From IMG/VR virus record IMGVR_UViG_3300020037_001525, positions 25,938 through 89,937 of that record: a stretch of 64,000 bases of DNA. One strand, given 5' to 3'. The notes beneath the pieces are model-generated. The model saw only the letters and a list, made by a program, of their open reading frames with translations. It ran no database searches and was not told where the DNA came from. Both the position numbers and the translations under genes were made by a program. Below are positions 1 through 61,521 of this stretch, piece by piece. Position 1 is the stretch's first letter. The number at the start of each line of letters is the position of its first letter. The stretch comes from a virus (taxonomy: Duplodnaviria; Caudoviricetes).

Positions 1-1331
1 ATCTCTGCGCTCTCTATCAATTCCATCTCAATCTCTACACGCTTTCTGTATAAATCAACATCAAGACCTCTTTTCTCAACTTTCTCAACAAATCCATATT
101 CTACCAACTCTCTAAAGTACTGTATGTTGCCCTTGCCTTTTGGTGCAAAATTATACTTTGGCAGTCTTGGTATACCAACTTCGATGCTAAAGTTGCAAGA
201 ATCAACAACCTGCTTCACACTATCAAGCATAGTATTGAACAAACGATTAAAGATATGCTTGTCTTTATACATCTTGGATGCTTGTTCTTCAATTTCGCTA
301 TATGGCTTGAAGTGTTCATCCTCACTGTAAGAGGTTATACGCTTGTCAACCTTATTGAGATATTCCTTCAACTGAAAATACTCTTTTTCTATGTAATAAC
401 TATCTTGTATCAAGATTGGTTGAATGTGGTCTGTATATTGCTTAGTATAATTTCTTATGAATTCAAGATTGCTCATGTCAACCTTATCTTCATAGAATTC
501 AGTGTAATCAACCTGTTGGTAAATCTGAGTGAAGTGTTTCTTGTAATTATCCACTGCTTTGACAAATCCTTTTCTATCATTCTGCAAATGGCTTAATAAT
601 CCGAATTTACAAAATACCAATATCAAACCTTCGGAATGTTCAAACAGTATCTCTTCGGTGATGAACTCACCATCAAACATGGAATTAGAATAGTTATTGA
701 TTTTCAGTAGGTTCAACCAACCTTGCTTATCCTTGACATAAAGTTTTACATCAAATTTCTTTTGTAATTTTTCTTCTGGGTTGTAATCATAAGCAACTGG
801 GACTGTTCTTCCAAGTATTGATTTTATACCTGCATCCCTGCATTCCATTTGAATGGCCATGGTTGCTGCTAATGTATTTTTATCACATATGCCTAATGCA
901 TTCATACCTAAAAACTTAGCTTTCTTGACCCAATTCTTTGGCTTACCACTTCCATTCAATAATTCGTATTCTGAATGTACTCCCAAGTGTATATACCTAT
1001 CATTGTTCTTAATCGCACAGTTGCCGACATACTTAAAATCATTGAATTCTGCTGAATATCTAAGGTATTCTGAATCTCCTGTATACTCCTTTAGTTTGGA
1101 ATAATACCACCTTTTGCCAAATTCAAACAGGAAATAGTCTATCTCATATTCTTCCAGATGCTTTTGTTCGACTGAATTGAGAGTGAAACAGCAATCCTCA
1201 TCAATTATCTTGTGTTTCTTTGGGTTCAAAAGCAACAACGTGCCTAAACCTTCAACAGTGTATAATGATTCACTTGCTTCCTCAACTATCAATAAGTTTT
1301 CTGCTATCCATGATTTTAAACTATCAGACAT
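1..1331 (-). CDS. dnaE: DNA polymerase III alpha-like (family C) polymerase, N-terminal part, truncated at window edge
   Basis: Not in the ORF track. Translated by hand from ATG at 1331 (overlaps the stop of the upstream gene); no stop in the stretches translated at both ends. PHP motifs HLGVHSEYELLNGSG and LGICDKNTLAA, and DLYRKRVEIEMELIES at the edge, match DnaE. Confidence 0.85.
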   Translation of the reverse strand, partial: MSDSLKSWIAENLLIVEEASESLYTVEGLGTLLLLNPKKHKIIDEDCCFTLNSVEQKHLEEYEIDYFLFEFGKRWYYSKLKEYTGDSEYLRYSAEFNDFKYVGNCAIKNNDRYIHLGVHSEYELLNGSGKPKNWVKKAKFLGMNALGICDKNTLAATMAIQMECRDAGIKSILGRTVPVAYDYNPEEKLQKKFDVKLYVKDKQGWLNLLKINNYSNSMFDGEFITEEILFEHSEGLILVFCKFGLLSHLQNDRKGFVKAVDNYKKHFTQIYQQVDYTEFYEDKVDMSNLEFIRNYTKQYTDHIQPILIQDSYYIEKEYFQLKEYLNKVDKRITSYSEDEHFKPYSEIEEQASKMYKDKHIFNRLFNTMLDSVKQVVDSCNFSIEVGIPRLPKYNFAPKGKGNIQYFRELVEYGFVEKVEKRGLDVDLYRKRVEIEMELIESAE

Positions 1332-2583
1332 ATTGATATGTGTTAGTTGCTCCTGTTCTCTTTCCGAAGAATGCTTCTGCTAACATTAGATAGTCCCATA
1401 CTACATAATCAGCTGGGTTCTCCTCATGTTCATGTTCATGAGCATGCTCAAAGAATGATTCAGCCTGAATTTCTTGTATCTCATCAAGTGCTTTTCGTTT
1501 GTTTTTGTTGAGTTTATATCGAACATATACTTCAAGTATTCTATAAACATCTGATAAATACTCACTTGATGACCAAATCATTGTTAATATTTCATCTCTT
1601 TCACTTTCATACTTCTCAGAATCTGTAAACAGCGCAGTCAAACCATTTATCATAGCATTAATCACTAAATCAATTTGCTTCAATCTTTCTGTTGCATCTG
1701 TGCTGCTATAATTGAAATCGAACTCTCTACTCTGCATATTGGTTCCATATTCGATAGTTTTATGCTTATCTTCAGTTGTTAGTATCTTGTTGGTCAGTTC
1801 ACCCATCTTGCCTTCTGTATACATATGGAGTGACTGCGAATTATGTACCTGACTTCCTAATTGCAATCCCAATATATTCGCACACAACTCTCCCATAAAT
1901 GAGAATTGGAATATATTTGTAGGCAATCCCCAATTTATATCATTGCTTCTGTTGGCAATTGTAGTGTGTAGTTTTCCGTCTCTAACTTTCCACATCCACA
2001 AATCATTGCATGGAATATCTTTGCTTGTAGTACCTAAATCTAACTCATAATTCCATATTTGTAGAACAATCCTTCTATCATTAGGATTGTTTTCTGCCAT
2101 TTGCAACGCTCTTTGCATCTGGTCGAATCCCATCTTAGCTTCATTCTGAACAAAAGAACTAATACCTGCATTTCTGATTCTGTATCCATATGGAGCATGA
2201 AAGTTCACGCCATCATCTGAATACTCCTTCATCTGAGAATTGAATATCTGCAAGAACGCCACATCTTTTCTACCAGCGAATATCCATAGTGCTTCAGCAA
2301 GCAAAAAGAATATGTTGATATCTCTGCTTCTTCCAGCCACACATCTTTCGTATGGATTGGATACCTCTGTTTTGAAGTTTAGAACTTCACAAGCATCACC
2401 ATTCCTTGAATTATCGTTTTTACCAAACTTATACAGTAAGTCAACCATATCAAAGTAAATTCTATTGAAGTTATCTGATTTTGCCACACCTAAATCAAAA
2501 TGTATTTCTGAAACCATGTCTTTATATTGTTTTTTTATATAACTTTGAAAGAAATTCCCCCAACGTATGTTGAGGGAATCCAC
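1324..2583 (-). CDS. Thymidylate synthase-fold enzyme, most likely dUMP hydroxymethylase
   Basis: TS motifs DIPCN (catalytic Cys), RSND and GLPTNIFQF (Asn at the dUMP-specificity position). SRNG, AEALWIFAGR and YSDDG..APYGYR resemble phage hydroxymethylases. 5-hmdU-modifying genes are in the same window. Confidence 0.8.
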   Translation of the reverse strand: MDSLNIRWGNFFQSYIKKQYKDMVSEIHFDLGVAKSDNFNRIYFDMVDLLYKFGKNDNSRNGDACEVLNFKTEVSNPYERCVAGRSRDINIFFLLAEALWIFAGRKDVAFLQIFNSQMKEYSDDGVNFHAPYGYRIRNAGISSFVQNEAKMGFDQMQRALQMAENNPNDRRIVLQIWNYELDLGTTSKDIPCNDLWMWKVRDGKLHTTIANRSNDINWGLPTNIFQFSFMGELCANILGLQLGSQVHNSQSLHMYTEGKMGELTNKILTTEDKHKTIEYGTNMQSREFDFNYSSTDATERLKQIDLVINAMINGLTALFTDSEKYESERDEILTMIWSSSEYLSDVYRILEVYVRYKLNKNKRKALDEIQEIQAESFFEHAHEHEHEENPADYVVWDYLMLAEAFFGKRTGATNTYQYV

Positions 2584-50061: not shown

Positions 50062-51726
50062 TTAAATCTTGTTTAAATAATTATTGAATGCTTTCTCAAA
50101 TGGATTCTCTTCTTGACCACTTCCATCATTATTAACTGCGTAATTCATATCGTTGTCTTGCTGTGGTTGTTCTTCCTCATCTTCCCCACCCTGTTCTTCT
50201 CCACCCATGTCGTCCCCACCTTGTTGCTCAGCTTGTTGCTGTTGCTGTTTTGCCATAATTGCTTGTGAGACTATGCTATTAGCTATTGTGTTTCCACCTT
50301 TCTCTTCACCAACTGGCTTCAAACCTCTCTTGACACGTATCTCGTCTACAGTCATGAAATTCATCAACTTCACATCATCTTCAAGTTCATCTTTAGCACT
50401 ATCTACGCCTAAACCAACAAATTTAAACACAAATTCAGGGTCAATTCTTTGAACTATATACTTATTGATTTTTCTCTCAAGAAATTTCAATAGTGGTAAT
50501 AAACCCTTATCTTTACTGTGCTTCAATCTTGCTTCATTGTTACCTTCGAACATAGATTTTTGTTCTGAACCACCTGATAGTGGAAAGTTAATCTCTGCTG
50601 GGTCTATTCTGTAAATGGCACATGAAAGTTTTATCAGATATTCTTGCCAATTTGAGAACTCCATATCTCTATTGTTCTTCTGTAGGTCAATCCAATCGAT
50701 ATCTCCTTCAAGTATTGGAGTCTTATGTGTGTTGTAAACACCTGACATCATGCCTTGCCACATCTGTTTAAACTGTGATAGCTTATCAGAAGATATTGAA
50801 GTTCCTGGTTTAATCTTGAAGAACCCTTTAGGTGCAGAACCTTGCATAAAGAATCTTCTGTTATACTCATCAGAATACAACATAGATGTTATTATTTGGG
50901 TCATCATCTCTATTTCAGAAACGCCATATCCATTTGAATATATGTTAGTCGTTGGATTTCTAACACCGAAACACATCTCCCATGGATAATAATCTGCTGT
51001 AATTGCGCTATCCTTAATTTGACAAAATGATGGATAGTATCCCATGACCTCTATTCTATCTCTGAATCTCTCATCCTTTTCATACAATTCTTTGTCAATG
51101 GAATCAGCTATTCTAATCGTTGCACCATCAACTGCAAAGAACTCAACAGGTCTGCCCCTCCTATCATGCACTACTTCAAAACAGGCTTGGTCGAATGTCA
51201 AACTATCATTTAATAACTTTCTTATGAAAGAATCGAAGTCATCACCATCGAATTTGTTATTAAGACCACCATCAAGCAAGAATTGTGTTATTCTTTCTGC
51301 CCTTAATAGGTCTTCTTTATCCATTTGCTTGGTTTCTTTATCATAGAACCCAGTTTTCTTCTTTATTACAAACCCTGCGTCATACTTTGTTTCTTGTGGT
51401 TCGCAAAACGCTAACACCTGTTCAATTCTTGTATTGATTACAGAACGGATGATTGGTGCTGTGTAAGATATACGTCTTGCCATAGAATAAGATACAGAAA
51501 ATGGCTTGTCTTTGTACCCCATGAAATTCTGAAACTCATATGGGTCTACAATGTATGATTTTTTGTTTATATCCTCTCTATTCTCTACATTTAGTATGTT
51601 ATTTGCTTTTATTAAGTCGCTTGGGTGATTTGAATGTATAGCTTGGTTCACAAGTATTGCCTTCTTCGCAGTAAGTTTTCTTTCTGCAAGTTCTATGGTC
51701 TCTATGCGTTTCTTTATAGTTGACAT
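50062..51726 (-). CDS. Portal protein
   Basis: LTFDQACFE..FAVDGATIR, YGVSEIE, FFMQGSAPKG, RDMEF..AIYRIDPAEINF, GLLPLL portal motifs. Confidence 0.9.
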   Translation of the reverse strand: MSTIKKRIETIELAERKLTAKKAILVNQAIHSNHPSDLIKANNILNVENREDINKKSYIVDPYEFQNFMGYKDKPFSVSYSMARRISYTAPIIRSVINTRIEQVLAFCEPQETKYDAGFVIKKKTGFYDKETKQMDKEDLLRAERITQFLLDGGLNNKFDGDDFDSFIRKLLNDSLTFDQACFEVVHDRRGRPVEFFAVDGATIRIADSIDKELYEKDERFRDRIEVMGYYPSFCQIKDSAITADYYPWEMCFGVRNPTTNIYSNGYGVSEIEMMTQIITSMLYSDEYNRRFFMQGSAPKGFFKIKPGTSISSDKLSQFKQMWQGMMSGVYNTHKTPILEGDIDWIDLQKNNRDMEFSNWQEYLIKLSCAIYRIDPAEINFPLSGGSEQKSMFEGNNEARLKHSKDKGLLPLLKFLERKINKYIVQRIDPEFVFKFVGLGVDSAKDELEDDVKLMNFMTVDEIRVKRGLKPVGEEKGGNTIANSIVSQAIMAKQQQQQAEQQGGDDMGGEEQGGEDEEEQPQQDNDMNYAVNNDGSGQEENPFEKAFNNYLNKI

Positions 51727-51783: not shown

Positions 51784-52369
51784 TCATCTTGGTTTGAATT
51801 CTAATTCAACTGTATTCATGCCTTTCAAGTATTGTTCCACAATTGATTCTTTCAATACTATTATCTTGACTTTCTTAACATTGTTGCAAACCCATTTGAT
51901 TTTATTGTATTGCCCATTTTTGATACAAGTCTTTATTGTATACATGGATTTTATTTCTAACATATAATCATCTGTCTCAAAATCTGCGGTGTACCAGCCA
52001 AGTGGTGTCTTTACATTATTAGCTTTCTGAACACTTTGTTCCTCTTAAATATTTCAAGTAATAATACAATTCATACCTGCCTTGTATTGTGAAACCATCA
52101 ATTTTGTAAAATTTACACTTACCACCTCTATTGATGAAACCACTTTCATTGATTTTCTTCATACGTTGGCTTAGTGTCTTCCTTTGTTCTTCTGATAAGT
52201 TCAATTTCTTACCCTTAGTACATAAATTCTTGCTTAACACATCTCCATTCTTAGAAAATCTCTTCTTCATTCTAAGACTCTGTCTTCTCTTGAATTCTTC
52301 TGAATGGCTGAATGTGTTACCATAATTAGGATTGTTTTCACCAAATATATCACGTTTGTTCATAACCAA
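51784..52369 (-). pseudogene. Frameshifted NUMOD3 + PD-(D/E)xK-type homing endonuclease
   Basis: Frame 1 (GENNPNYG..HSEEFKRRQS) stops at 52019. The +1 frame continues EEQSVQK..YTADFETDDYMLEIKS to TGA at 51784. Confidence 0.7.
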
Positions 52370-52382
52370 AACTCATTTAGAA

Positions 52383-53339
52383 CTAAATAACTGGATTGTA
52401 TTTATCTCTTGATTTCCCAATTCCAGTTTTTATCTTCCAGTACTTCTGGTATTCGCACAAGAAAAATTCGATATTAGATAACACAATATTCCAATCACAC
52501 AATTCATACTTCTCTTGCTGCTTGTTCCACTGTACATACTTGAAGTCCTCTGGTAGTAGGTCTCTTGATAAATCTTGTATTTCTCTCAATGTATCAAGAG
52601 TTTGTGGTCTTGATGGCATTATAATACGCAAACCCAGCTGCGCTCCTGGTCCGATGTTAGTCCATGTGTTTTCTGTTGCCAAAAACTCTGATTTCTCTGT
52701 ATATTTAGTCATGTAACACATATCCAAAAACCATTCATGTGATACGAATTTTCCAATTCCTTCAACCATAGTCATCTTCCTTATCAATTCTTTCCATGAA
52801 TATTTACCTATGAATCCAATAAAGTATATTTCAGATATATGTTTATACAGCGATGGTACTATATATTTAGCACAAGCCAATCCCTGAGTTGTGCCCTTAG
52901 CTAACCAACTATTTATGGCATAAGCCTTTTTGTTTGTTGAAGGTTTGTATTCTTCATAGCACTCAACAACATAATAGAATGATTCTGGTGTGTACTCAAC
53001 TATTGTCGGTATTTCAACAATGTTAAGAAATTCTACATTGTTATACAATCTCGATATACAGATTTTCCAAAGTTTATCTGCTTCTGATAACTCCTTGTTG
53101 AGTATTATATTGTGTATAATCCACTGTGATACCTTGTCTAATTCTCTGTAAGCATTGCAGAATTTATACTTAGAAAGTATATCATCGTCCTTATTCCATT
53201 GTTTTCGTGGCAAATTAAGCATGTTTCTGTCATACCAAATCTCCTGTCTTATATACATCGTTGTGAAGAATTCTGCTAAGTTTTCCTCATGTATTTCTAT
53301 ATCTTTTGATGGAAAGTATTTCTCAAAGTCTGTTGACAT
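52383..53339 (-). CDS. 5-hmdU DNA kinase-like protein (aGPT-Pplase1 family)
   Basis: RQEIWY.R..LPRKQW..DDILSKYKFCNAYRELDKVSQWI, GIGKFVSHE, NIGPGAQLGL, IEFFLCEYQKY. Confidence 0.82.
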   Translation of the reverse strand: MSTDFEKYFPSKDIEIHEENLAEFFTTMYIRQEIWYDRNMLNLPRKQWNKDDDILSKYKFCNAYRELDKVSQWIIHNIILNKELSEADKLWKICISRLYNNVEFLNIVEIPTIVEYTPESFYYVVECYEEYKPSTNKKAYAINSWLAKGTTQGLACAKYIVPSLYKHISEIYFIGFIGKYSWKELIRKMTMVEGIGKFVSHEWFLDMCYMTKYTEKSEFLATENTWTNIGPGAQLGLRIIMPSRPQTLDTLREIQDLSRDLLPEDFKYVQWNKQQEKYELCDWNIVLSNIEFFLCEYQKYWKIKTGIGKSRDKYNPVI

Positions 53340-53367
53340 TGAAATTTTTAACTGCTAATCGAATTCA

Positions 53368-53937
53368 TTAGAATTTGTACTCATAGAATTCAATGATGAA
53401 GTCTTCCACCATTTTCTGAGAATATAAGCATCCTATATTGAAATCATTCTTCTTCAGAACCTTAGCTGCTTTTGTTGGTTCAGTTCTTGATGTACTTATA
53501 TCATGGTCTACTACAAGTTCACGTTTCTTTGTGTATCCCCAAAATGTGAATCCTAATTTATTGTAGAACATGACCGAATCTAATGTTGATGCGAGACTGT
53601 ATATACGTTTTGGGTCTTCCTTCTTTAAGGTGTATTCAATTAATGCTCTCTGCACTCCTTGACCTCTATATTCTGGCACTGTGTAGATGAAATATATATT
53701 GAGATAGTCATCCTTACCATGTTTGTATGATATGAATCCACATATTTCTCCATCGTTGGCACACATCGCCAGAACCTTGCAACCATAAAAATGGCTTATC
53801 CTTGCCTCTGACAGAAACGACTTATCCTCTTTGCTTTGTGAAGCCTTGGATTGTGATTTCAAAAAGTCATAAAACATCTGCTTTTCTGATTCTGGTATGT
53901 AGCAGAATGACACTGATTCCTCTGTTAATATTTTCAT
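53368..53937 (-). CDS. GNAT acetyltransferase
   Basis: IYTVPEYRGQGV (motif A) and FYNKLGF. Confidence 0.88.
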   Translation of the reverse strand: MKILTEESVSFCYIPESEKQMFYDFLKSQSKASQSKEDKSFLSEARISHFYGCKVLAMCANDGEICGFISYKHGKDDYLNIYFIYTVPEYRGQGVQRALIEYTLKKEDPKRIYSLASTLDSVMFYNKLGFTFWGYTKKRELVVDHDISTSRTEPTKAAKVLKKNDFNIGCLYSQKMVEDFIIEFYEYKF

Positions 53938-54560
53938 GATAAAGATAGTATTTTATTCAAGACTTCCATCTCGATTTGTTCAGGTGAATTCAAAGCATCA
54001 ATTTGTATCTTATTCAACACTCTGTCTTGTACTTTATTCCAGATATTCATATATTGCTTGTTCTTACCAATCACTGAATCATAATTCCTATCAGATATGC
54101 TAAGCAACAAATGTTCATTGTTATCAGGATACATGTTATGCAATTTCTTATATTGTCTTAACTTCAAACGCTTGATGTTTTCATCATAGCTTATATTCAA
54201 GTGTACTAACAAGAAATTCTCATCAATTTTCTCTACAAAATCAAACCAAGTATATGCTGCTTGCGCACCTTCTACTATCACAAATTCACAATCTTCGTTG
54301 GCTTTGCGTATGCTTAATTCCACACCTTCTGTTTTCAACCATCCCATGACTGGGTCTATACCGCAAGTAGCCACACCATCCTTCATTTGTCCAATGGACG
54401 CAACTCTGCCAATTCTGCTGTACATAAAATTGACACCATTTTCTGTTCCCTTCACTATATCACAACCATGCTCATGCCCATCATAGGATAATGTGGATAT
54501 TAGATTTTTGTTCAGTGTTGTTTTACCAGAAGCCATGCTTCCCATTATCCATATTATCAT
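53934..54560 (-). CDS. P-loop nucleotide kinase
   Basis: Walker A GSMASGKTT, IVEG, lid Arg region KRLKLRQ. Confidence 0.8.
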   Translation of the reverse strand: MIIWIMGSMASGKTTLNKNLISTLSYDGHEHGCDIVKGTENGVNFMYSRIGRVASIGQMKDGVATCGIDPVMGWLKTEGVELSIRKANEDCEFVIVEGAQAAYTWFDFVEKIDENFLLVHLNISYDENIKRLKLRQYKKLHNMYPDNNEHLLLSISDRNYDSVIGKNKQYMNIWNKVQDRVLNKIQIDALNSPEQIEMEVLNKILSLS

Positions 54561-54727
54561 TGCTTTCTTTTTGTTTGAACTTTACTACTTGTTATGTGGA
54601 AACACTTGCATTCAGTGCAATAGTATGACCTCTTTGGTATGATTGACTCACTGCTATGCTTTTTTATATAAGCAATAGCTTCATTTGCTTCTCTCTGTCT
54701 CATGTATTTGGTTTTATTGCAACTCAT
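54557..54727 (-). CDS. Small Zn-finger protein (56 aa)
   Basis: Below the track cut-off. Hand translation MSCNKTKY..KRSYYCTECKCFHITSS; ATGA overlaps with both neighbours. Confidence 0.7.
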   Translation of the reverse strand: MSCNKTKYMRQREANEAIAYIKKHSSESIIPKRSYYCTECKCFHITSSKVQTKRKQ

Positions 54728-55746
54728 TGTATTCCTTCATATTTGCTATCAGTGAACCAATCAATCAATTCAACCTGCCCTTTGTCAAGGAAATAGTGCA
54801 TCCTGCGCTCATCCACTTTGTTTCTTAACAGTTCTGGTATGAGTGTTTCTTCCCTTGCATCCCATAGTAGCTTCCACTCAATTCCTGGCCAATAGTGGTC
54901 AACCTCACATCGCTTTATGTTTTCTGCTTGTCTGTCTATGTAATATCCTAAGTATCTCCCGTGTTTTTTACGAAACATTTTCTTGAAGCTACATAATGAT
55001 GTTTCCATAGTGAAATAATCTACTTCAACGTCTGGATACTCACTTCTCATCTCATCCAGAATTTGCTTTGCTTCTTGGTCAAGATATTCATGCGTTTCTT
55101 TGTCGAATGGTGTTCCTTTTTCCGTCATCTCATCCATAGCAATTGTGTAAAATAAACCATTTCTATGGCTCGTACTTGAATCATCCTTCAACAATAGGTC
55201 TCGTGGCATTACTGGTAAATCGCATGTCTCTCTCAATGTTTGTAAATAGAAGAATGCTAAGTACCTTCCGAATTTGAAAAAGTCCTTCTTGATTATCTTC
55301 ATAGCAATATCAAAATTGTCCTCTTCCGAACCACCTATGCAAACTGTTTCCCTGAAATACTGTTCTTGTGTCGTACAACCGAATTCATATACATTCTTCC
55401 TGTATGAAGCAAACATTGCTGGGAGATGACCTCTCTGCCATTTATTGTCTGTTTCGTATATAAGTTTCTTGTAATTCTCTGCATTCCACTTCTCAAGTCT
55501 CTCTTGGTCAACATTCTCGAAGTCAGGAAATTCATTCCATATAATCCATGTTGTCGCAACATTATATGTATTAGCATATATCCAAGCTATCCAATATCTC
55601 TGTTCTATGTTCAATTCCATACGCTTATGGATATAATTCAACATATACATAGCAGGGTCACAATCTTGAGTCATTAGTTGCCAATGATAGTATCTCTTGA
55701 AGAACTCTCTACGTAAATTGTAATCTTGTGTTCTGTAATCTTTCAT
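54724..55746 (-). CDS. Amino acid:DNA transferase-like protein (aGPT-Pplase2 family)
   Basis: DCDPA..QRYWIAWIYANTY..EFPDF, FGRYLAFFYLQTL, SHRNGL, ETSLCSFK, RYLGYY.DRQAE. Confidence 0.8.
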   Translation of the reverse strand: MKDYRTQDYNLRREFFKRYYHWQLMTQDCDPAMYMLNYIHKRMELNIEQRYWIAWIYANTYNVATTWIIWNEFPDFENVDQERLEKWNAENYKKLIYETDNKWQRGHLPAMFASYRKNVYEFGCTTQEQYFRETVCIGGSEEDNFDIAMKIIKKDFFKFGRYLAFFYLQTLRETCDLPVMPRDLLLKDDSSTSHRNGLFYTIAMDEMTEKGTPFDKETHEYLDQEAKQILDEMRSEYPDVEVDYFTMETSLCSFKKMFRKKHGRYLGYYIDRQAENIKRCEVDHYWPGIEWKLLWDAREETLIPELLRNKVDERRMHYFLDKGQVELIDWFTDSKYEGIQ

Positions 55747-56474
55747 TATGATATGTATTTATCTTCTGATTTTGTTCTGATTTGTTTATCCTCTATGTGT
55801 TTAACATTGTAGGAAAGTTCATTTGATATAAGTAAATTACCACTTTCAGCAGTATGAAAAAAGTAGTAAACAAATGGTTCTGTTGGGAAGATTTTGACGT
55901 TCTCATATCCCAGATTCTTCATTGCTCTCTTTATTATATCTTTTGTAGAAGCAAACCCAGCAAATTTTTCTCCTGCAAATAACCACAGTGGTCTTGTTTC
56001 ATTGCGAAAACAATACAAATTTTCTGTATCTAAAACGCCACAGGCTATGGAAGATTTCTTGAACTTCTTAAATACAACAGAACCTTCTTCTATGCATTTA
56101 AGCAACAACTCACTGTCATTCTTTGTTTTGAAGTCTGTATAACCGAAGTGTTCTTCCCACATTTCTGGTTTCTCCTGTGTGATGATGCCGTTATGTGTTA
56201 TAGCTATTTCTTCAGTTGATATTGGTTGATGATGTTTGATGAAAGATGTGGAATACCTAACATGACCTATCATTCTTGGAGACCATGGAAGTTCATACTC
56301 TTTAACAAACTTATCTGCTGACATAGCCACCGTTACAGTATCTACAACTCCGTCTTCTATGGTTGATATTCCCACTGAGTGTCTGCCTCTGATTTGTGAT
56401 TGCTTGAGCAATTCTTCAAATACTGTAATCCCTATATTCTTGCCCTTACTGATTAATCCTACAATTCCACACAT
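55746..56474 (-). CDS. Class II (Ntn) glutamine amidotransferase, stand-alone
   Basis: N-terminal MCGIVG, RGRHSVG, IGHVRYST, HNGII, NDSE, FRNETRPL. Confidence 0.88.
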   Translation of the reverse strand: MCGIVGLISKGKNIGITVFEELLKQSQIRGRHSVGISTIEDGVVDTVTVAMSADKFVKEYELPWSPRMIGHVRYSTSFIKHHQPISTEEIAITHNGIITQEKPEMWEEHFGYTDFKTKNDSELLLKCIEEGSVVFKKFKKSSIACGVLDTENLYCFRNETRPLWLFAGEKFAGFASTKDIIKRAMKNLGYENVKIFPTEPFVYYFFHTAESGNLLISNELSYNVKHIEDKQIRTKSEDKYIS

Positions 56475-56475
56475 A

Positions 56476-56925
56476 TTATTTTTGGTTTATTGGTTTTAAA
56501 ATGTATTTTGGTAAAGATTCTGTATGAAAATCAATGTTTCTTATTCTTATTGATGGTATTCCAATCTTCGATGTACCTCTCAATGCTTCTGAAATCAAGA
56601 ATGTTTCATTTACATTGTTTTCAAATTTCACTTTTTCTACTATCGCTAAGTGTAACCCTGACAACACTTCTTTGTAATACAATATACAGTTTCCACCGAT
56701 TTTCATTGGTAAGAATTGAGTGTTTGCATTATCCCACATAAGAATATCACCGACTTGTATATGATTGTAATTATATTCGTGCTTCTTAAAATATGTATCA
56801 AGATGTTTTTCTATGCTCAAATTATACAATTTCGCATCGTCTATATTGAGATATGCTTCCAACCCTCTTCTCCTTATAACGTATGTAAAACATGTGTCTT
56901 GCTTGTTAAGTGTCACTTCTCGCAT
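56476..56925 (-). CDS. Hypothetical protein
   Basis: 149 aa ORF ending 1 bp before the amidotransferase start. Confidence 0.6.
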   Translation of the reverse strand: MREVTLNKQDTCFTYVIRRRGLEAYLNIDDAKLYNLSIEKHLDTYFKKHEYNYNHIQVGDILMWDNANTQFLPMKIGGNCILYYKEVLSGLHLAIVEKVKFENNVNETFLISEALRGTSKIGIPSIRIRNIDFHTESLPKYILKPINQK

Positions 56926-57401: not shown

Positions 57402-58013
57402 TTACAAGTTGTCGAACCTCATATTATCGCTTAAGAATTCCAATATCTTCAGATGAATATCTTCCAATTCTTCATCTGCATTAATCTTTATGTGAGCATC
57501 ACATAAGTGTTTGGTTCTCTCATACAGACTATAGAAACCTCTCTGCTTACCTGCAAGATTTTCCTTAGTCTTATCACTTAAATCTTCTACAATTCCACTC
57601 TTGATGTATCTTCTATGTATAACTCTATAGAAATTGTCTTCTGGTGTCTCAAAATGCAAGTATATAACCAATAAGTTTATGCTGTACTTGCGTAACAATT
57701 CTATGTGTTTCCCTGTACTCATGATAGGGTCTAATACAATTACATCTATGCTTGCTTCTCTTTTCATTATCTCATCATAAGTCAATATGACTTGTGATTT
57801 CTGTGGTAATGTATCTGTCCCTGTGCATTGATTGTCTTTAATCCCACCTATGTGTACTGAATTATCGTATAACGTATATTCCCACTTCAAACCACCTTCA
57901 AATCCAGAGAATATGGTCTTTTCTGCAGAATTGGACAAAGACTCATGTATGAGTCTTGCCTGTGTAGTCTTGCCAGAAGCATTGCTTCCGTATATCCAAA
58001 TTACATTCTTCAT
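57402..58013 (-). CDS. P-loop nucleotide kinase, paralog of 53934..54560
   Basis: GSNASGKTT; HIGGIKD..CTGTD resembles SIGQMKD..TCGID of the other kinase. Confidence 0.75.
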   Translation of the reverse strand: MKNVIWIYGSNASGKTTQARLIHESLSNSAEKTIFSGFEGGLKWEYTLYDNSVHIGGIKDNQCTGTDTLPQKSQVILTYDEIMKREASIDVIVLDPIMSTGKHIELLRKYSINLLVIYLHFETPEDNFYRVIHRRYIKSGIVEDLSDKTKENLAGKQRGFYSLYERTKHLCDAHIKINADEELEDIHLKILEFLSDNMRFDNL

Positions 58014-61370: not shown

Positions 61371-61444
61371 GGCTTCGTAGCTTAATTGAATAAAGCAACT
61401 TTTTTGCGAAATGTGGGATATAGGTTTGAATCCTATCGAGGTCA
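61371..61444 (+). tRNA. tRNA-like element, anticodon TGC (Ala), probably degenerate
   Basis: Cloverleaf by hand: acceptor GGCTTCG/CGAGGTC, D stem GCTT/AAGC, anticodon stem ACTTT/AATGT (one mismatch), T arm ATAGG-TTTGAAT-CCTAT. No G3:U70 pair, no CCA. Confidence 0.6.
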
Positions 61445-61521
61445 CTTTTGATATACAAATAAAAATTTTTGTTTATTTTCTTTTAATGATTAAAGAGACT
61501 TATTATAACTGTGTTGTAAAA

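What the first reader, a model, noticed from the sequence alone, without database searches (positions are those of the whole stretch)
52383..56474. Thymidine-hypermodification operon pairing an amino acid:DNA transferase with a glutamine amidotransferase and a GNAT: candidate new base-modification route
Seen: five genes chained by 1-4 nt stop/start overlaps (class II GATase, TAATG, AADT-like, ATGA, Zn finger, ATGA, P-loop kinase, ATGA, GNAT), then a 5-hmdU DNA kinase-like gene 28 bp later. A dUMP hydroxymethylase-like gene lies at 1324..2583. Established: in phages M6, ViI and PaMx11, 5-hmdU in DNA is phosphorylated by the kinase, an AADT adds Gly or Ser, and a PLP decarboxylase, radical SAM isomerase, or FAD oxidoreductase plus acetyltransferase finishes the base. 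None of those finishing enzymes is recognisable here except the GNAT; an Ntn amidotransferase with intact Cys2 sits in their place. Inference: the GATase may supply ammonia from Gln so that the AADT makes 5-aminomethyl-dU directly, which the GNAT then acetylates. That would be a shortcut to 5-AcNmdU or a route to an undescribed base. I cannot check whether this gene combination is already published.
Basis: partly seen in the sequence, partly recalled or inferred. Interest (0 to 1): 0.88.

Follow-up and report, generated by a model that had tools for sequence, protein, structure and literature searches.

The report
Glutamine-fed phage thymine hypermodification operon
An uncultured phage carries a tight gene cluster in which a glutamine-splitting enzyme most likely hands ammonia to a DNA-base transferase, turning hydroxymethyl-uracil in its DNA into an aminomethyl base that is then probably acetylated. 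This gene combination has been noted in print, but its chemistry has never been tested.

Summary
Six co-oriented genes at 52383-56474 (minus strand) have 1-4 nt overlaps and one 28-bp gap. They encode a class II GATase (MCGIVG), a clade-2 AADT (E248/C252), a 56-aa Cys-rich protein, a P-loop kinase, a GNAT, and a helical AADT paralogue. That last gene is not a kinase. A thymidylate-synthase-like gene lies at 1324-2583.

No radical SAM, FAD or PLP finishing enzyme was found on the 89.9-kb contig.

- At least 12 natural GATase-AADT fusion proteins (or 50%-identity cluster representatives) start with Met-Cys.
- All six longer relatives of the GATase are such fusions.
- The GATase was present in 45 of 45 related viral loci with enough flank.
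- A complex model scored 0.86 against 0.01 for controls, with the glutaminase catalytic face at the interface.
- In one PaMx11-syntenic cluster, a GATase-AADT fusion replaces the glycine transferase plus FAD lyase, ahead of a close homologue of the 5-NmdU acetyltransferase.

The likely product is 5-aminomethyl-dU, then probably 5-acetylaminomethyl-dU.

The co-occurrence is already published (Lee 2021; PNAS 2026) without a function. This scan has noted the same cassette type on at least 11 other genomes. I rate it a new variant of a known kind.

The parts
55746..56474 (-). Stand-alone class II (Ntn) glutamine amidotransferase, 242 aa (P0001). Proposed glutaminase subunit.
   Evidence: Pfam GATase_6 and GATase_7 are above cut-off. 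The protein starts MCGIVG. C2, R73, N95, G96 and D120 are invariant in a 46-sequence family alignment. 90 of 91 family members start with MC.
54724..55746 (-). Clade-2 AADT (aGPT-Pplase2) homologue, 340 aa (P0002). Proposed ammonia-accepting 5-PmdU aminotransferase subunit.
   Evidence: PF18724 scores 55.2 bits. The E248-T-S-L-C252 motif matches E243/T244/C247 of PaMx11 gp46. The AlphaFold model has pLDDT 95, and its top PDB fold hit is 8z2m, PaMx11 gp46. It is the only PF18724 match in the genome.
54557..54727 (-). 56-aa Cys-rich protein (C3 ... C37-x2-C40-x-C42-x-H44), role unknown. Not part of the conserved cassette.
   Evidence: Translation. Only weak matches to PHROGs of unknown function. 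Absent from related loci.
53934..54560 (-). P-loop kinase, 208 aa (P0004). Candidate 5-hmdU DNA kinase.
   Evidence: Walker A motif GSMASGKT. AAA_18 is below cut-off and phrog_800 is matched over its N-terminal part. It matches the HMM of the cassette kinase family (Ploopntkinase3-type) at E 4.4e-5. Members of that family match the proven kinase PaMx11 gp49.
53368..53937 (-). GNAT acetyltransferase, 189 aa (P0005). Proposed 5-NmdU N-acetyltransferase.
   Evidence: Three Pfam GNAT models are above cut-off. It belongs to the cassette GNAT family, E 1e-18. It is a weak homologue of PaMx11 gp48: 26% identity over 126 aa, E 3.6e-7.
52383..53339 (-). Helical AADT paralogue (PF18723 HMUDK_hel, 'clade 1'), 318 aa (P0006). 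No P-loop, role unknown.
   Evidence: PF18723 scores 106 bits. It is a homologue of PaMx11 gp50 (E 2e-19) and M6 gp55. hhalign to the AADTs gives probability 95.6%, with E291/C295 aligned to E248/C252.
57402..58013 (-). Second P-loop kinase-like protein, 203 aa (P0248), a paralogue of P0004. Candidate lineage-conserved 5-hmdU DNA kinase.
   Evidence: BLASTP against P0004: 23% identity over 201 aa, E 1e-12. Walker A motif GSNASGKT. Full-length weak match to PaMx11 gp49, E 0.014. Homologues lie upstream of the GATase in L002-L004, L007 and L008.
1324..2583 (-). Thymidylate-synthase-family protein, 419 aa. Inferred dUMP hydroxymethylase supplying 5-hmdU.
   Evidence: PF00303 at E 1.2e-26. 38% identical to PaMx11 gp51 and 35% to M6 gp58. 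The hydroxymethylase activity itself was not tested.

Best explanation
This is a thymidine-hypermodification operon of an uncultured phage. The phage is probably Bacteroidota-infecting.

Proposed pathway, with every step inferred:
1. The thymidylate-synthase-like enzyme (1324-2583) makes 5-hydroxymethyl-dUMP, so the phage DNA is built with 5-hmdU.
2. One or both P-loop kinases (53934-54560; paralogue at 57402-58013) phosphorylate 5-hmdU in the DNA polymer to give 5-PmdU.
3. The AADT attacks C6 with Cys252, helped by Glu248. It expels phosphate and forms the exocyclic C5 methylene, as shown for M6 gp51 and PaMx11 gp46.
4. The nucleophile is not a free amino acid. It is ammonia released from glutamine by the Ntn glutaminase. 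This glutaminase docks its catalytic face on the AADT, and in other phages it is fused to the AADT N-terminus. The two gene products together form a class II glutamine amidotransferase whose acceptor is a base in DNA. The product is 5-aminomethyl-dU (5-NmdU).
5. The GNAT then N-acetylates the amine to give 5-acetylaminomethyl-dU (5-AcNmdU).

This reaches the PaMx11 base without the glycine adduct and without the FAD lyase.
For: (1) Fusions. An exhaustive search with the AADT found 384 relatives. Pfam shows an N-terminal GATase and a C-terminal AADT in P0102, P0103, P0116, P0119, P0125, P0127 and P0131. A 'longer' search with the GATase returned six proteins, all GATase-AADT fusions and no GlmS, AsnB or PurF type. 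Eleven fusions start with MCG. All fusions examined keep the AADT E[TS]xxC motif, and the five checked for them (P0249-P0253) also keep HNG and NDSE. The glutaminase is always N-terminal, as an Ntn nucleophile requires.

(2) Co-occurrence. Among the 80 best of at least 585 IMG/VR loci, 45 have 4 kb or more upstream. Of those, 45 carry the GATase and 41 the GNAT. 59 of the 64 loci with 1.5 kb or more downstream carry the cassette kinase. The most distant GATase family members (31-35% identity) also sit in AADT cassettes.

(3) Complex model. ipSAE was 0.86 in three runs (0.85-0.87) against 0.01 for the best of three controls. The runs share at least 84% of contacts, and partner pLDDT is at least 84. 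In calibration the mark was reached by 58 of 80 solved complexes and 2 of 110 mismatched pairs. Those counts hold only roughly here, because my own alignments were used. The GATase interface residues (1, 27-32, 74, 76, 96-97, 100, 159-162, 176-179) coincide with the family's invariant catalytic residues. No GATase-AADT complex appeared among the PDB matches to the AADT.

(4) Natural module swap. L093 reads GATase-AADT fusion, kinase (34% identical to PaMx11 gp49), GNAT (39% to gp48, E 1e-32), helical protein (gp50/gp55), TS (39% to gp51), HD hydrolase (gp52). This is the PaMx11 cluster with gp46 plus the FAD lyase gp47 replaced by the fusion. In PaMx11, gp48 acts only on 5-NmdU (PMC8989533).

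(5) No known finishing enzyme. The own contig has no match to Radical_SAM, DAO, Pyridoxal_deC or Aminotran_5. It also has no homologue of PaMx11 gp47, M6 gp52 or M6 gp53. The 88 related loci scanned have none either.

(6) The variable slot holds enzymes that can cap an amine. These are a GNAT, a Methyltransf_21 enzyme in the closest relatives (L002/L003), or an amidoligase-like protein.

(7) Glycine-binding residues are not kept. Trp146 and Lys150 of PaMx11 gp46 (PMC11472151) are Tyr162 and Phe166 here. GATase-fused AADTs share a signature (D28, D30, Y61, Y162, R272) that differs from PALP-, TET- and HMUD2-fused AADTs.

(8) Chemical precedent. The M6 gp51 methylene intermediate is trapped by exogenous nucleophiles (PMC8989533). 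From my own knowledge of the Moukadiri 2009 paper cited there, tRNA MnmEG uses ammonium or glycine on an analogous intermediate.
Against: There are no biochemical or mass-spectrometric data for any member of this clade.

The complex score is a model's own confidence, obtained with my own alignments. I could not inspect coordinates for a tunnel between Cys2 and the AADT pocket.

The window's GNAT is only weakly similar to PaMx11 gp48 (26% identity). It did not match the L093 GNAT by BLASTP at E 1e-3. The acyl group and acceptor are therefore uncertain.

The kinase matches none of the Pfam 5-hmdU-kinase families.

The helical AADT paralogue keeps its catalytic Cys. The second kinase, the 56-aa protein and a 149-aa upstream protein are all unassigned and could change the final base.

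The hydroxymethylase activity of the TS-like gene is inferred from homology only.

The contig is about 90% complete, so a finishing enzyme could lie in the missing part.
Confidence: 0.6

Rival explanations
1. The AADT installs a free amino acid, as in M6, ViI and SP10. The GATase supplies ammonia to amidate the carboxylate of that appended amino acid after activation by the extra kinase (or, in other cassettes, by the amidoligase). The result would be an amino-acid-amide base that the GNAT then acetylates.
For: The AADT family is characterised as an amino acid or polyamine transferase (PMC8989533). The operon has two paralogous kinases. Many related cassettes carry an amidoligase-like gene between the GATase and the GNAT.
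Against: The only fusion partner found for the GATase is the AADT, never a kinase or an amidoligase. The complex model places the glutaminase face on the AADT. This window, L092 and L093 have no amidoligase. In L093 the fusion replaces both the glycine transferase and the FAD lyase ahead of a gp48-like enzyme, which in PaMx11 does not accept the glycine adduct (PMC8989533). The glycine-binding Lys and Trp are not conserved.
Confidence: 0.12
2. The Ntn domain is a hydrolase, not an ammonia donor. The AADT attaches glutamine, or a gamma-glutamyl compound, to the base. The Ntn enzyme then cleaves the tethered amide, in the manner of EgtC. The result would be a glutamyl base or would unmask an amine.
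For: From my own knowledge, some stand-alone class II GATase homologues such as EgtC act as gamma-glutamyl amidohydrolases. A bifunctional fusion would also fit two successive steps. SP10 makes alpha-glutamyl-thymidine (PMC8989533).
Against: The amide nitrogen of glutamine is a poor nucleophile for the methylene intermediate. An alpha-linked glutaminyl adduct would bury the alpha-amino group. The invariant Asp120 is expected to bind that group, a role I assign by analogy to GlmS from memory; its invariance is. The predicted interface buries the glutaminase active site against the AADT rather than leaving it open to DNA. The L093 swap points to 5-NmdU as the direct product.
Confidence: 0.1
3. 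The amination happens as proposed, but the final base in this phage is not 5-AcNmdU. The GNAT may transfer another acyl or aminoacyl group, or act elsewhere. Alternatively the AADT paralogue with the second kinase installs a further or different group on some of the 5-hmdU residues.
For: The window's GNAT is only a distant relative of gp48. P0006 keeps the Glu/Cys dyad. There are two kinases. The closest relatives swap the GNAT for a methyltransferase, so the slot is chemically plastic.
Against: PaMx11 and M6 also carry the helical paralogue. It was not needed for the first two steps in M6 (5-PmdU to N-alpha-GlyT), and purified gp47 and gp48 alone converted N-alpha-GlyT DNA to the final base in PaMx11 (PMC8989533). 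Acetyl-CoA is the default GNAT donor, and three acetyltransferase models match.
Confidence: 0.15
4. The GATase is an auxiliary metabolic gene acting on small-molecule nucleotide or amino-sugar metabolism, like a PurF, GlmS or AsnB fragment. It merely happens to lie beside the DNA-modification genes.
For: Some source annotations call family members PRPP amidotransferase or asparagine synthetase. PHROGs labels its best match as GlmS-like.
Against: The protein has no synthase domain. All six longer relatives are AADT fusions. The GATase is present in 45 of 45 related loci with enough flank. The gene overlaps the AADT start by 1 nt.
Confidence: 0.03

Closest known systems
Pseudomonas phage PaMx11 5-AcNmdU pathway (gp46 AADT/PUGT, gp47 FAD lyase, gp48 acetyltransferase, gp49 5-HMUDK, gp50, gp51 TS-like). 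Sources: Lee et al. 2021, PMC8989533; Wen et al. 2024, PMC11472151.
   Same: Both have a TS-like 5-hmdU source, a P-loop kinase, an AADT with the E-T-x-x-C dyad and the same fold (top PDB hit 8z2m), a GNAT, and a helical gp50-like paralogue, clustered in a similar order. The predicted end product is the same.
   Different: There is no FAD lyase. A class II GATase precedes the AADT. The AADT is about 13% identical to gp46 and lacks its glycine-binding Trp146 and Lys150. The window also has two kinases and an extra 56-aa protein. The route would skip the N-alpha-glycinyl-thymidine intermediate.
Metavirome thymidine-hypermodification clusters with 'glutaminotransferase' and amidoligase domains (Lee et al. 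2021), and ParB-dependent T-dioxygenase clusters with GATase, P-loop kinase and AADT (PNAS 2026, PMC13229309).
   Same: They contain the same GATase, AADT, kinase and GNAT families. The 80 IMG/VR loci fetched here are mostly of this type: TET - GATase - (amidoligase-like) - GNAT - (ParB-like) - AADT - kinase.
   Different: This phage has no TET/JBP, ParB-like or amidoligase-like gene. It uses a TS-like enzyme, so 5-hmdU would be made before replication, and it carries the helical paralogue. Neither paper, nor any other I found in the held library, assigns a function to the GATase.
Class II (Ntn) glutamine amidotransferases GlmS, PurF, AsnB and GltS.
   Same: Both have an N-terminal Cys nucleophile and conserved Arg, Asn-Gly and Asp residues. 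In fused forms the glutaminase is N-terminal to the acceptor domain. The predicted glutaminase face is apposed to the acceptor domain.
   Different: The acceptor domain is an HhH-GPD-like DNA base-flipping transferase, and the acceptor would be a base in polymeric DNA. In this window the two halves are separate genes.
tRNA MnmEG / MnmC pathway (nm5U, cmnm5U, mnm5U).
   Same: The chemistry is analogous. A C5-methylene uridine intermediate is captured by ammonium or glycine, then the amine is tailored. Lee et al. 2021 draw this comparison; the ammonium route is from my own knowledge of the Moukadiri 2009 paper they cite. Relatives that carry a methyltransferase in the GNAT slot parallel the step from nm5U to mnm5U.
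   Different: The protein families are unrelated, the substrate is DNA rather than tRNA, and activation is by phosphorylation of 5-hmU rather than by folate and FAD chemistry.

Membership tests
Amino acid:DNA transferase (AADT, aGPT-Pplase clade 2, PF18724) | Match to the family profile above the curated cut-off | tested here: met
   55.2 bits against a cut-off of 26.2, E 1e-14. phrog_3271 at E 2.9e-45.
Amino acid:DNA transferase (AADT, aGPT-Pplase clade 2, PF18724) | Essential Cys and neighbouring Glu (PaMx11 gp46 E243/T244/C247; mutants of M6 gp51 and ViI gp247 are inactive) | tested here: met
   E248-T249-S-L-C252. E248 and C252 are invariant in 38 homologues. The motif aligns to the gp46 and gp51 motif.
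Amino acid:DNA transferase (AADT, aGPT-Pplase clade 2, PF18724) | Fold of the solved member (PaMx11 gp46, PDB 8z2m/8z2n) | tested here: met
   Model pLDDT 95.3. The top Foldseek PDB hits are 8z2m and 8z2n, with probability 1.00 and TM 0.55/0.63 over 315 columns. The E-value of 1.2e-3 is borderline.
Amino acid:DNA transferase (AADT, aGPT-Pplase clade 2, PF18724) | Uses a free amino acid or polyamine as nucleophile (glycine held by Asp24, Trp146 and Lys150 in gp46) | tested here: not met
   Trp146 corresponds to Tyr162 and Lys150 to Phe166. Only the Asp (D30) appears to be kept, and that is judged from the D-x-D-P motif, because the gp46 N-terminus did not align. This is a sequence comparison only. 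The substrate itself cannot be tested here.
Class II (Ntn) glutamine amidotransferase | N-terminal nucleophile Cys directly after the initiator Met | tested here: met
   The protein starts MCGIVG. 90 of 91 stand-alone family members and 11 fusions start with MC.
Class II (Ntn) glutamine amidotransferase | Profile match and conserved glutamine-binding and oxyanion residues (Arg, Asn-Gly, Asp) | tested here: met
   GATase_6 scores 30.1 against a cut-off of 27, and GATase_7 28.5 against 25. R73, N95, G96 and D120 are invariant. Their mapping to GlmS R73/N98/G99/D123 is from memory.
Class II (Ntn) glutamine amidotransferase | Coupled acceptor (synthase) domain that receives the ammonia | tested here: inconclusive
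   Fusions to the AADT and a complex model at 0.86 against 0.01 for controls support coupling. Ammonia transfer itself cannot be tested with these tools.
5-hmdU DNA kinase (5-HMUDK: PF18748, PF18747, PF18751) | P-loop kinase matching one of the family profiles | tested here: inconclusive
   P0004 and P0248 both have Walker A motifs. Neither matches a Pfam HMUDK family, even at E up to 5. P0004 matches an HMM built from the cassette kinases at E 4.4e-5. Those kinases match PaMx11 gp49 down to E 8e-6.
PaMx11-type 5-AcNmdU pathway | FAD-dependent glycinyl-thymine lyase (gp47) | tested here: not met
   There is no DAO-family match and no gp47 homologue on the contig.
PaMx11-type 5-AcNmdU pathway | 5-NmdU N-acetyltransferase (gp48 homologue) | tested here: inconclusive
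   A GNAT is present. It is 26% identical to gp48, E 3.6e-7. The clear orthologue (39%, E 1e-32) is in L093, not in this window.
dUMP hydroxymethylase (thymidylate synthase superfamily) | Hydroxymethylase rather than methylase activity | not testable with these tools
   The protein matches PF00303 and is 35-38% identical to the TS-like genes of the 5-hmdU phages M6 and PaMx11. No discriminating residues were examined.

The most novel reading that the evidence does not exclude
The stand-alone GATase and the AADT together form a glutamine amidotransferase whose acceptor is a base in polymeric DNA. I know of no described example; that rests on my own knowledge and on the literature searches. Ammonia from glutamine is delivered to the enzyme-bound C5-methylene of 5-PmdU, giving 5-aminomethyl-dU in one step. 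This would be an FAD-, PLP- and radical-SAM-independent entry to a family of amine-capped thymine derivatives, tailored by acetyl, methyl or amide-linked groups according to the enzyme in the variable slot.
Probability: 0.55. Interest if true: 0.75.

Novelty: new variant of a known kind. Interest (0 to 1): 0.6.

Why it matters
Thymidine hypermodification protects phage DNA from restriction. It is also a source of enzymes that derivatise DNA in place.

The glutamine amidotransferases seen beside AADTs in metaviromes have had no assigned role since 2021. If the reading is right, they define a second, shorter route to 5-aminomethyl-dU. That base is a primary amine on DNA, which is useful as a chemical handle.

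It would also explain a cassette found in hundreds of viral contigs, and add DNA to the list of acceptors of Ntn amidotransferases.

The evidence gathered here turns the idea into a small, well-defined experiment. That evidence is the natural fusions, the PaMx11-syntenic module swap, and the predicted interface on the catalytic face.

Tried and rejected
- Megablast of the operon against 50,697 phage records found nothing.
- tblastn of the AADT found only relatives below 30% identity in cultured phages.
- The GNAT had no phage match at E 1e-4.
- The GATase matched only Photobacterium phage PhCF1.2 (27.5% identity). There it is the N-terminus of a 455-aa protein in a cluster without an AADT, so it is not the same system.
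- phmmer of the AADT against PDB sequences found nothing. Only the fold search reached PaMx11 gp46.
- The promoter and terminator scan of 51.5-59 kb gave no more sites than shuffled sequence, so the transcription unit's ends are undefined.
- I considered the 203-aa ORF at 57402-58013 to be a Sak4-like AAA_24 recombination ATPase. I rejected that as the sole reading, because it is a full-length paralogue of the operon kinase.
- Iyer et al. 2013, the original aGPT-Pplase paper, is not in the held library. I could not check whether it predicted a role for the GATase.
- The first complex-prediction request failed because the machine was busy, and was repeated unchanged.
- Cassette families c5, c8 and c13 have no confident Pfam match. 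From consensus motifs and one weak PF12224 match, c5 looks amidoligase-like and c8 ParB-like. Neither occurs in this genome.

Full report
**What is there**

The window is bases 25938-89937 of an 89,937-bp IMG/VR viral contig that is about 90% complete. GC content is about 35%, and the long ORFs that tile the window all lie on the minus strand.

Profile searches and translations give:
- a 242-aa class II glutamine amidotransferase starting MCGIVG;
- a 340-aa AADT (PF18724, 55 bits);
- a 56-aa Cys-rich protein;
- a 208-aa P-loop kinase with Walker A motif GSMASGKT;
- a 189-aa GNAT;
- a 318-aa protein matching PF18723 (HMUDK_hel).

The gene at 1324-2583 belongs to the thymidylate synthase family. 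It is 38% identical to the TS-like gp51 of PaMx11 and 35% to M6 gp58.

The portal protein at 50062-51726 is closest to those of Chryseobacterium and Bacteroides phages, at 38-41% identity.

**Corrections to the observation**

The sixth gene is not a kinase. It has no P-loop and is homologous to M6 gp55 and PaMx11 gp50.

A profile-profile comparison shows it is a paralogue of the AADT: probability 95.6% over 217 columns. Its Glu291 and Cys295 align with the AADT catalytic Glu248 and Cys252.

A second P-loop protein lies at 57402-58013 (P0248). It is a full-length paralogue of the operon kinase (23% identity, E 1e-12). It is the kinase-like protein conserved upstream of the GATase in the nearest relatives.

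**Is the AADT a true family member?**

- It passes the Pfam cut-off.
- It keeps the E-T-x-x-C dyad. This matches E243/T244/C247 of PaMx11 gp46, which mutagenesis showed to be essential in M6 gp51 and ViI gp247 (PMC8989533, PMC11472151).
- Its AlphaFold model (pLDDT 95.3) finds the gp46 crystal structures 8z2m and 8z2n as the top PDB folds, followed by HhH-GPD glycosylases.
- The residues that hold glycine in gp46 are not kept. Trp146 corresponds to Tyr162 and Lys150 to Phe166.

**What the GATase does: comparative evidence**

(a) An exhaustive HMMER search with the AADT returned 384 relatives. Many of the longer ones have an N-terminal class II GATase domain joined directly to the AADT domain.

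(b) The reverse search, for longer relatives of the GATase, returned six proteins. All six are GATase-AADT fusions.

(c) Eleven fusions begin MCG. All fusions examined keep the AADT E[TS]xxC motif, and the five checked for them (P0249-P0253) also keep HNG and NDSE. This is the architecture of GlmS, PurF, AsnB and GltS, in which the glutaminase must be N-terminal.

(d) The stand-alone GATase family has 91 members, all metagenomic. Ninety of them start with MC. Cys2, Arg73, Asn95-Gly96 and Asp120 are invariant in a 46-sequence alignment of the family.

(e) In the 80 closest of at least 585 IMG/VR loci encoding this AADT type, the GATase is present in 45 of the 45 loci with 4 kb or more upstream. 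The GNAT is present in 41 of those 45. The cassette kinase is present in 59 of the 64 loci with enough downstream sequence.

(f) Family members only 31-35% identical to the window's GATase still lie in AADT cassettes.

(g) A complex prediction for the AADT and the GATase, each as an alignment, gave ipSAE 0.86 in three runs (0.85-0.87). The best of three controls scored 0.01. The runs share at least 84% of contacts, and partner pLDDT is at least 84. In the tool's calibration, 58 of 80 solved complexes and 2 of 110 mismatched pairs reached the mark. Those counts hold only roughly here, because my own alignments were used.

(h) The GATase residues at the interface are 1, 27-32, 74, 76, 96-97, 100, 159-162 and 176-179. 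These are the invariant catalytic-face residues. A catalytic face apposed to the acceptor domain is what an ammonia-channelling pair would show.

**The most telling locus**

L093 reads:
- GATase-AADT fusion (P0253);
- kinase, 34% identical to the proven 5-HMUDK PaMx11 gp49;
- GNAT, 39% identical to gp48 (E 1e-32);
- gp50/gp55-like helical protein;
- TS-like protein, 39% identical to gp51;
- HD hydrolase resembling gp52.

This is the PaMx11 cluster with the glycine transferase gp46 and the FAD lyase gp47 replaced by the fusion.

In PaMx11, gp46 plus gp47 produce 5-NmdU, and gp48 accepts only 5-NmdU, not the glycine adduct (PMC8989533). The simplest reading is that the fusion makes 5-NmdU directly.

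L090 and L092 show the fusion with an HMUDK_HMUD1 kinase and a TS-like gene, and L092 also has a helical protein. No GNAT was detected in either. They may stop at the free amine.

**Absence of other finishing enzymes**

The own contig has no match to Radical_SAM, DAO, Pyridoxal_deC or Aminotran_5. It has no homologue of PaMx11 gp47, M6 gp52 or M6 gp53. The 88 related loci scanned with those proteins have none either.

The slot next to the GATase-AADT core varies between lineages:
- a GNAT (this window, L009, L011 and most TET-type cassettes);
- a Methyltransf_21 enzyme in the closest relatives L002 and L003, with a similar protein in L007 and L008;
- an amidoligase-like protein in many cassettes.

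All three enzyme classes can act on an amine. That fits a primary amine as the common intermediate.

AADTs fused to a GATase also share residues that differ from those in AADTs fused to PALP, TET or HMUD2 domains.

**Mechanism proposed (all steps inferred)**

1. The TS-like enzyme supplies 5-hmdU.
2. The kinase or kinases make 5-PmdU in DNA.
3. AADT Cys252 adds to C6 and expels phosphate, giving the C5-methylene. This step was shown for M6 gp51, where borohydride and mercaptoethanol trap the intermediate.
4. Ammonia from glutamine hydrolysis at Cys2 of the docked GATase attacks the methylene, giving 5-NmdU.
5. The GNAT acetylates the amine, giving 5-AcNmdU.

I put about 0.6 on the amination step. 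I put somewhat less on acetyl as the final group in this phage, because the window's GNAT is only 26% identical to gp48. The AADT paralogue, the second kinase, the 56-aa protein and a 149-aa upstream protein also remain unassigned.

**Rivals**

- Amidation of an appended amino acid.
- An EgtC-like hydrolase role for the Ntn domain.
- A different final base.
- An unrelated metabolic role for the GATase.

Each is weighed in its own section of this report. The fusion partner, the predicted interface and the L093 swap argue against the first, second and fourth.

**What is already known**

Lee et al. 2021 state that amidoligase and 'glutaminotransferase' domains co-occur with 5-HMUDK and aGPT-Pplase2 in metaviromes, with functions not yet known.

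The 2025 preprint and the 2026 PNAS paper on phage T-dioxygenases list GATases, P-loop kinases and AADTs as machinery linked to ParB-dependent TET/JBP enzymes. GNAT appears among the domain categories in a figure.

I found no paper in the held library that assigns the GATase a role or reports the fusions. Iyer et al. 2013 could not be read.

No cultured phage in the 50,697-record collection carries this GATase family next to an AADT.

This scan's earlier notes list at least 11 findings of the same cassette type on other genomes, mostly TET-initiated and in T4-like phages. Several reach the same reading. I reached mine before reading them, and they are not independent evidence.

**How this window differs from the common form**

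It has no TET/JBP, ParB-like or amidoligase-like gene. It uses a TS-like 5-hmdU source and carries the helical paralogue, as M6 and PaMx11 do. The GATase and AADT are separate genes joined by a TAATG overlap.

**Verdict**

It is a new variant of a known kind, of moderate to high interest, and directly testable.

Noticed in passing
window 57402-58013 (-): A 203-aa P-loop protein (P0248) is a full-length paralogue of the operon kinase (23% identity, E 1e-12). Its homologues, not P0004's, are conserved upstream of the GATase in relatives that lack an in-cluster kinase. The phage may have two 5-hmdU kinases, as ViI does.
   Followed up: partly
window 56476-56925 (-): A 149-aa ORF (P0247) ends 1 nt before the GATase start and is conserved in L002 and L003. 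It has a weak CHAP / cysteine-proteinase-fold match (E 0.006), with a Cys12 ... His92 pattern. Protein Atlas neighbours are phage hypotheticals, a minority of them NlpC/P60. It is possibly an amidase-like member of the unit.
   Followed up: partly
window 52383-53339 (-); L009-L011: The helical 'clade 1' protein keeps the AADT catalytic Cys in all 11 sequences aligned. The paired Glu is kept in most but is Ser in L009-L011. A conserved nucleophile suggests catalysis rather than a mere DNA-binding helper for the kinase. The function is unknown.
   Followed up: partly
L002:4728-5432, L003:3317-4021, L007:3516-4232, L008:6980-7696: The closest relatives (GATase 73% identical in L002/L003) carry a different gene between the AADT and the helical protein, in place of the window's 56-aa protein, kinase and GNAT. 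In L002 and L003 it is a Methyltransf_21 (FkbM-type) methyltransferase. In L007 and L008 it is a 238-aa protein that looks like one by its SAM-binding motif. This predicts a methylaminomethyl-dU-like base in those phages.
   Followed up: no
P0104, P0208, P0199, P0154, P0148, P0101/P0133/P0158, P0171/P0191: The AADT domain occurs fused to many partners: a low-molecular-weight phosphatase (LMWPc), Tet_JBP, a PALP-type PLP enzyme, the HMUD2 kinase, an AAA_18 kinase, and a C-terminal Ploopntkinase3. Two AADTs are interrupted by HNH-bearing inteins.
   Followed up: partly
L010:3477-5060: In this relative the AADT ORF is 527 aa, with a C-terminal extension of about 190 residues of unknown nature. 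No separate kinase was detected in the locus.
   Followed up: no
window 52019-52369 (-): A 116-aa ORF with a weak NUMOD3 match (E 9e-4) lies between the modification cluster and the portal gene. It may be a remnant or small form of a homing endonuclease. GIY-YIG genes also sit in or beside the cassette in several related loci (cluster c20).
   Followed up: no
window 61371-61445 (+): A single tRNA-Ala (TGC) gene is predicted on the plus strand, opposite to all the long ORFs that tile the window.
   Followed up: no
window 1324-2583 (-): The TS-like protein is 419 aa. The thymidylate synthase domain covers residues 42-280, leaving a C-terminal extension of about 140 residues with no family match.
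   Followed up: no
L091 (Photobacterium phage PhCF1.2, PQ521129.1:7545-12382): A cultured phage encodes a 455-aa protein with an N-terminal GATase of this broad type, beside an ATP-grasp enzyme and a weak match to the amidoligase-like family c5. No AADT was detected. It may be a different, uncharacterised modification cluster.
   Followed up: partly
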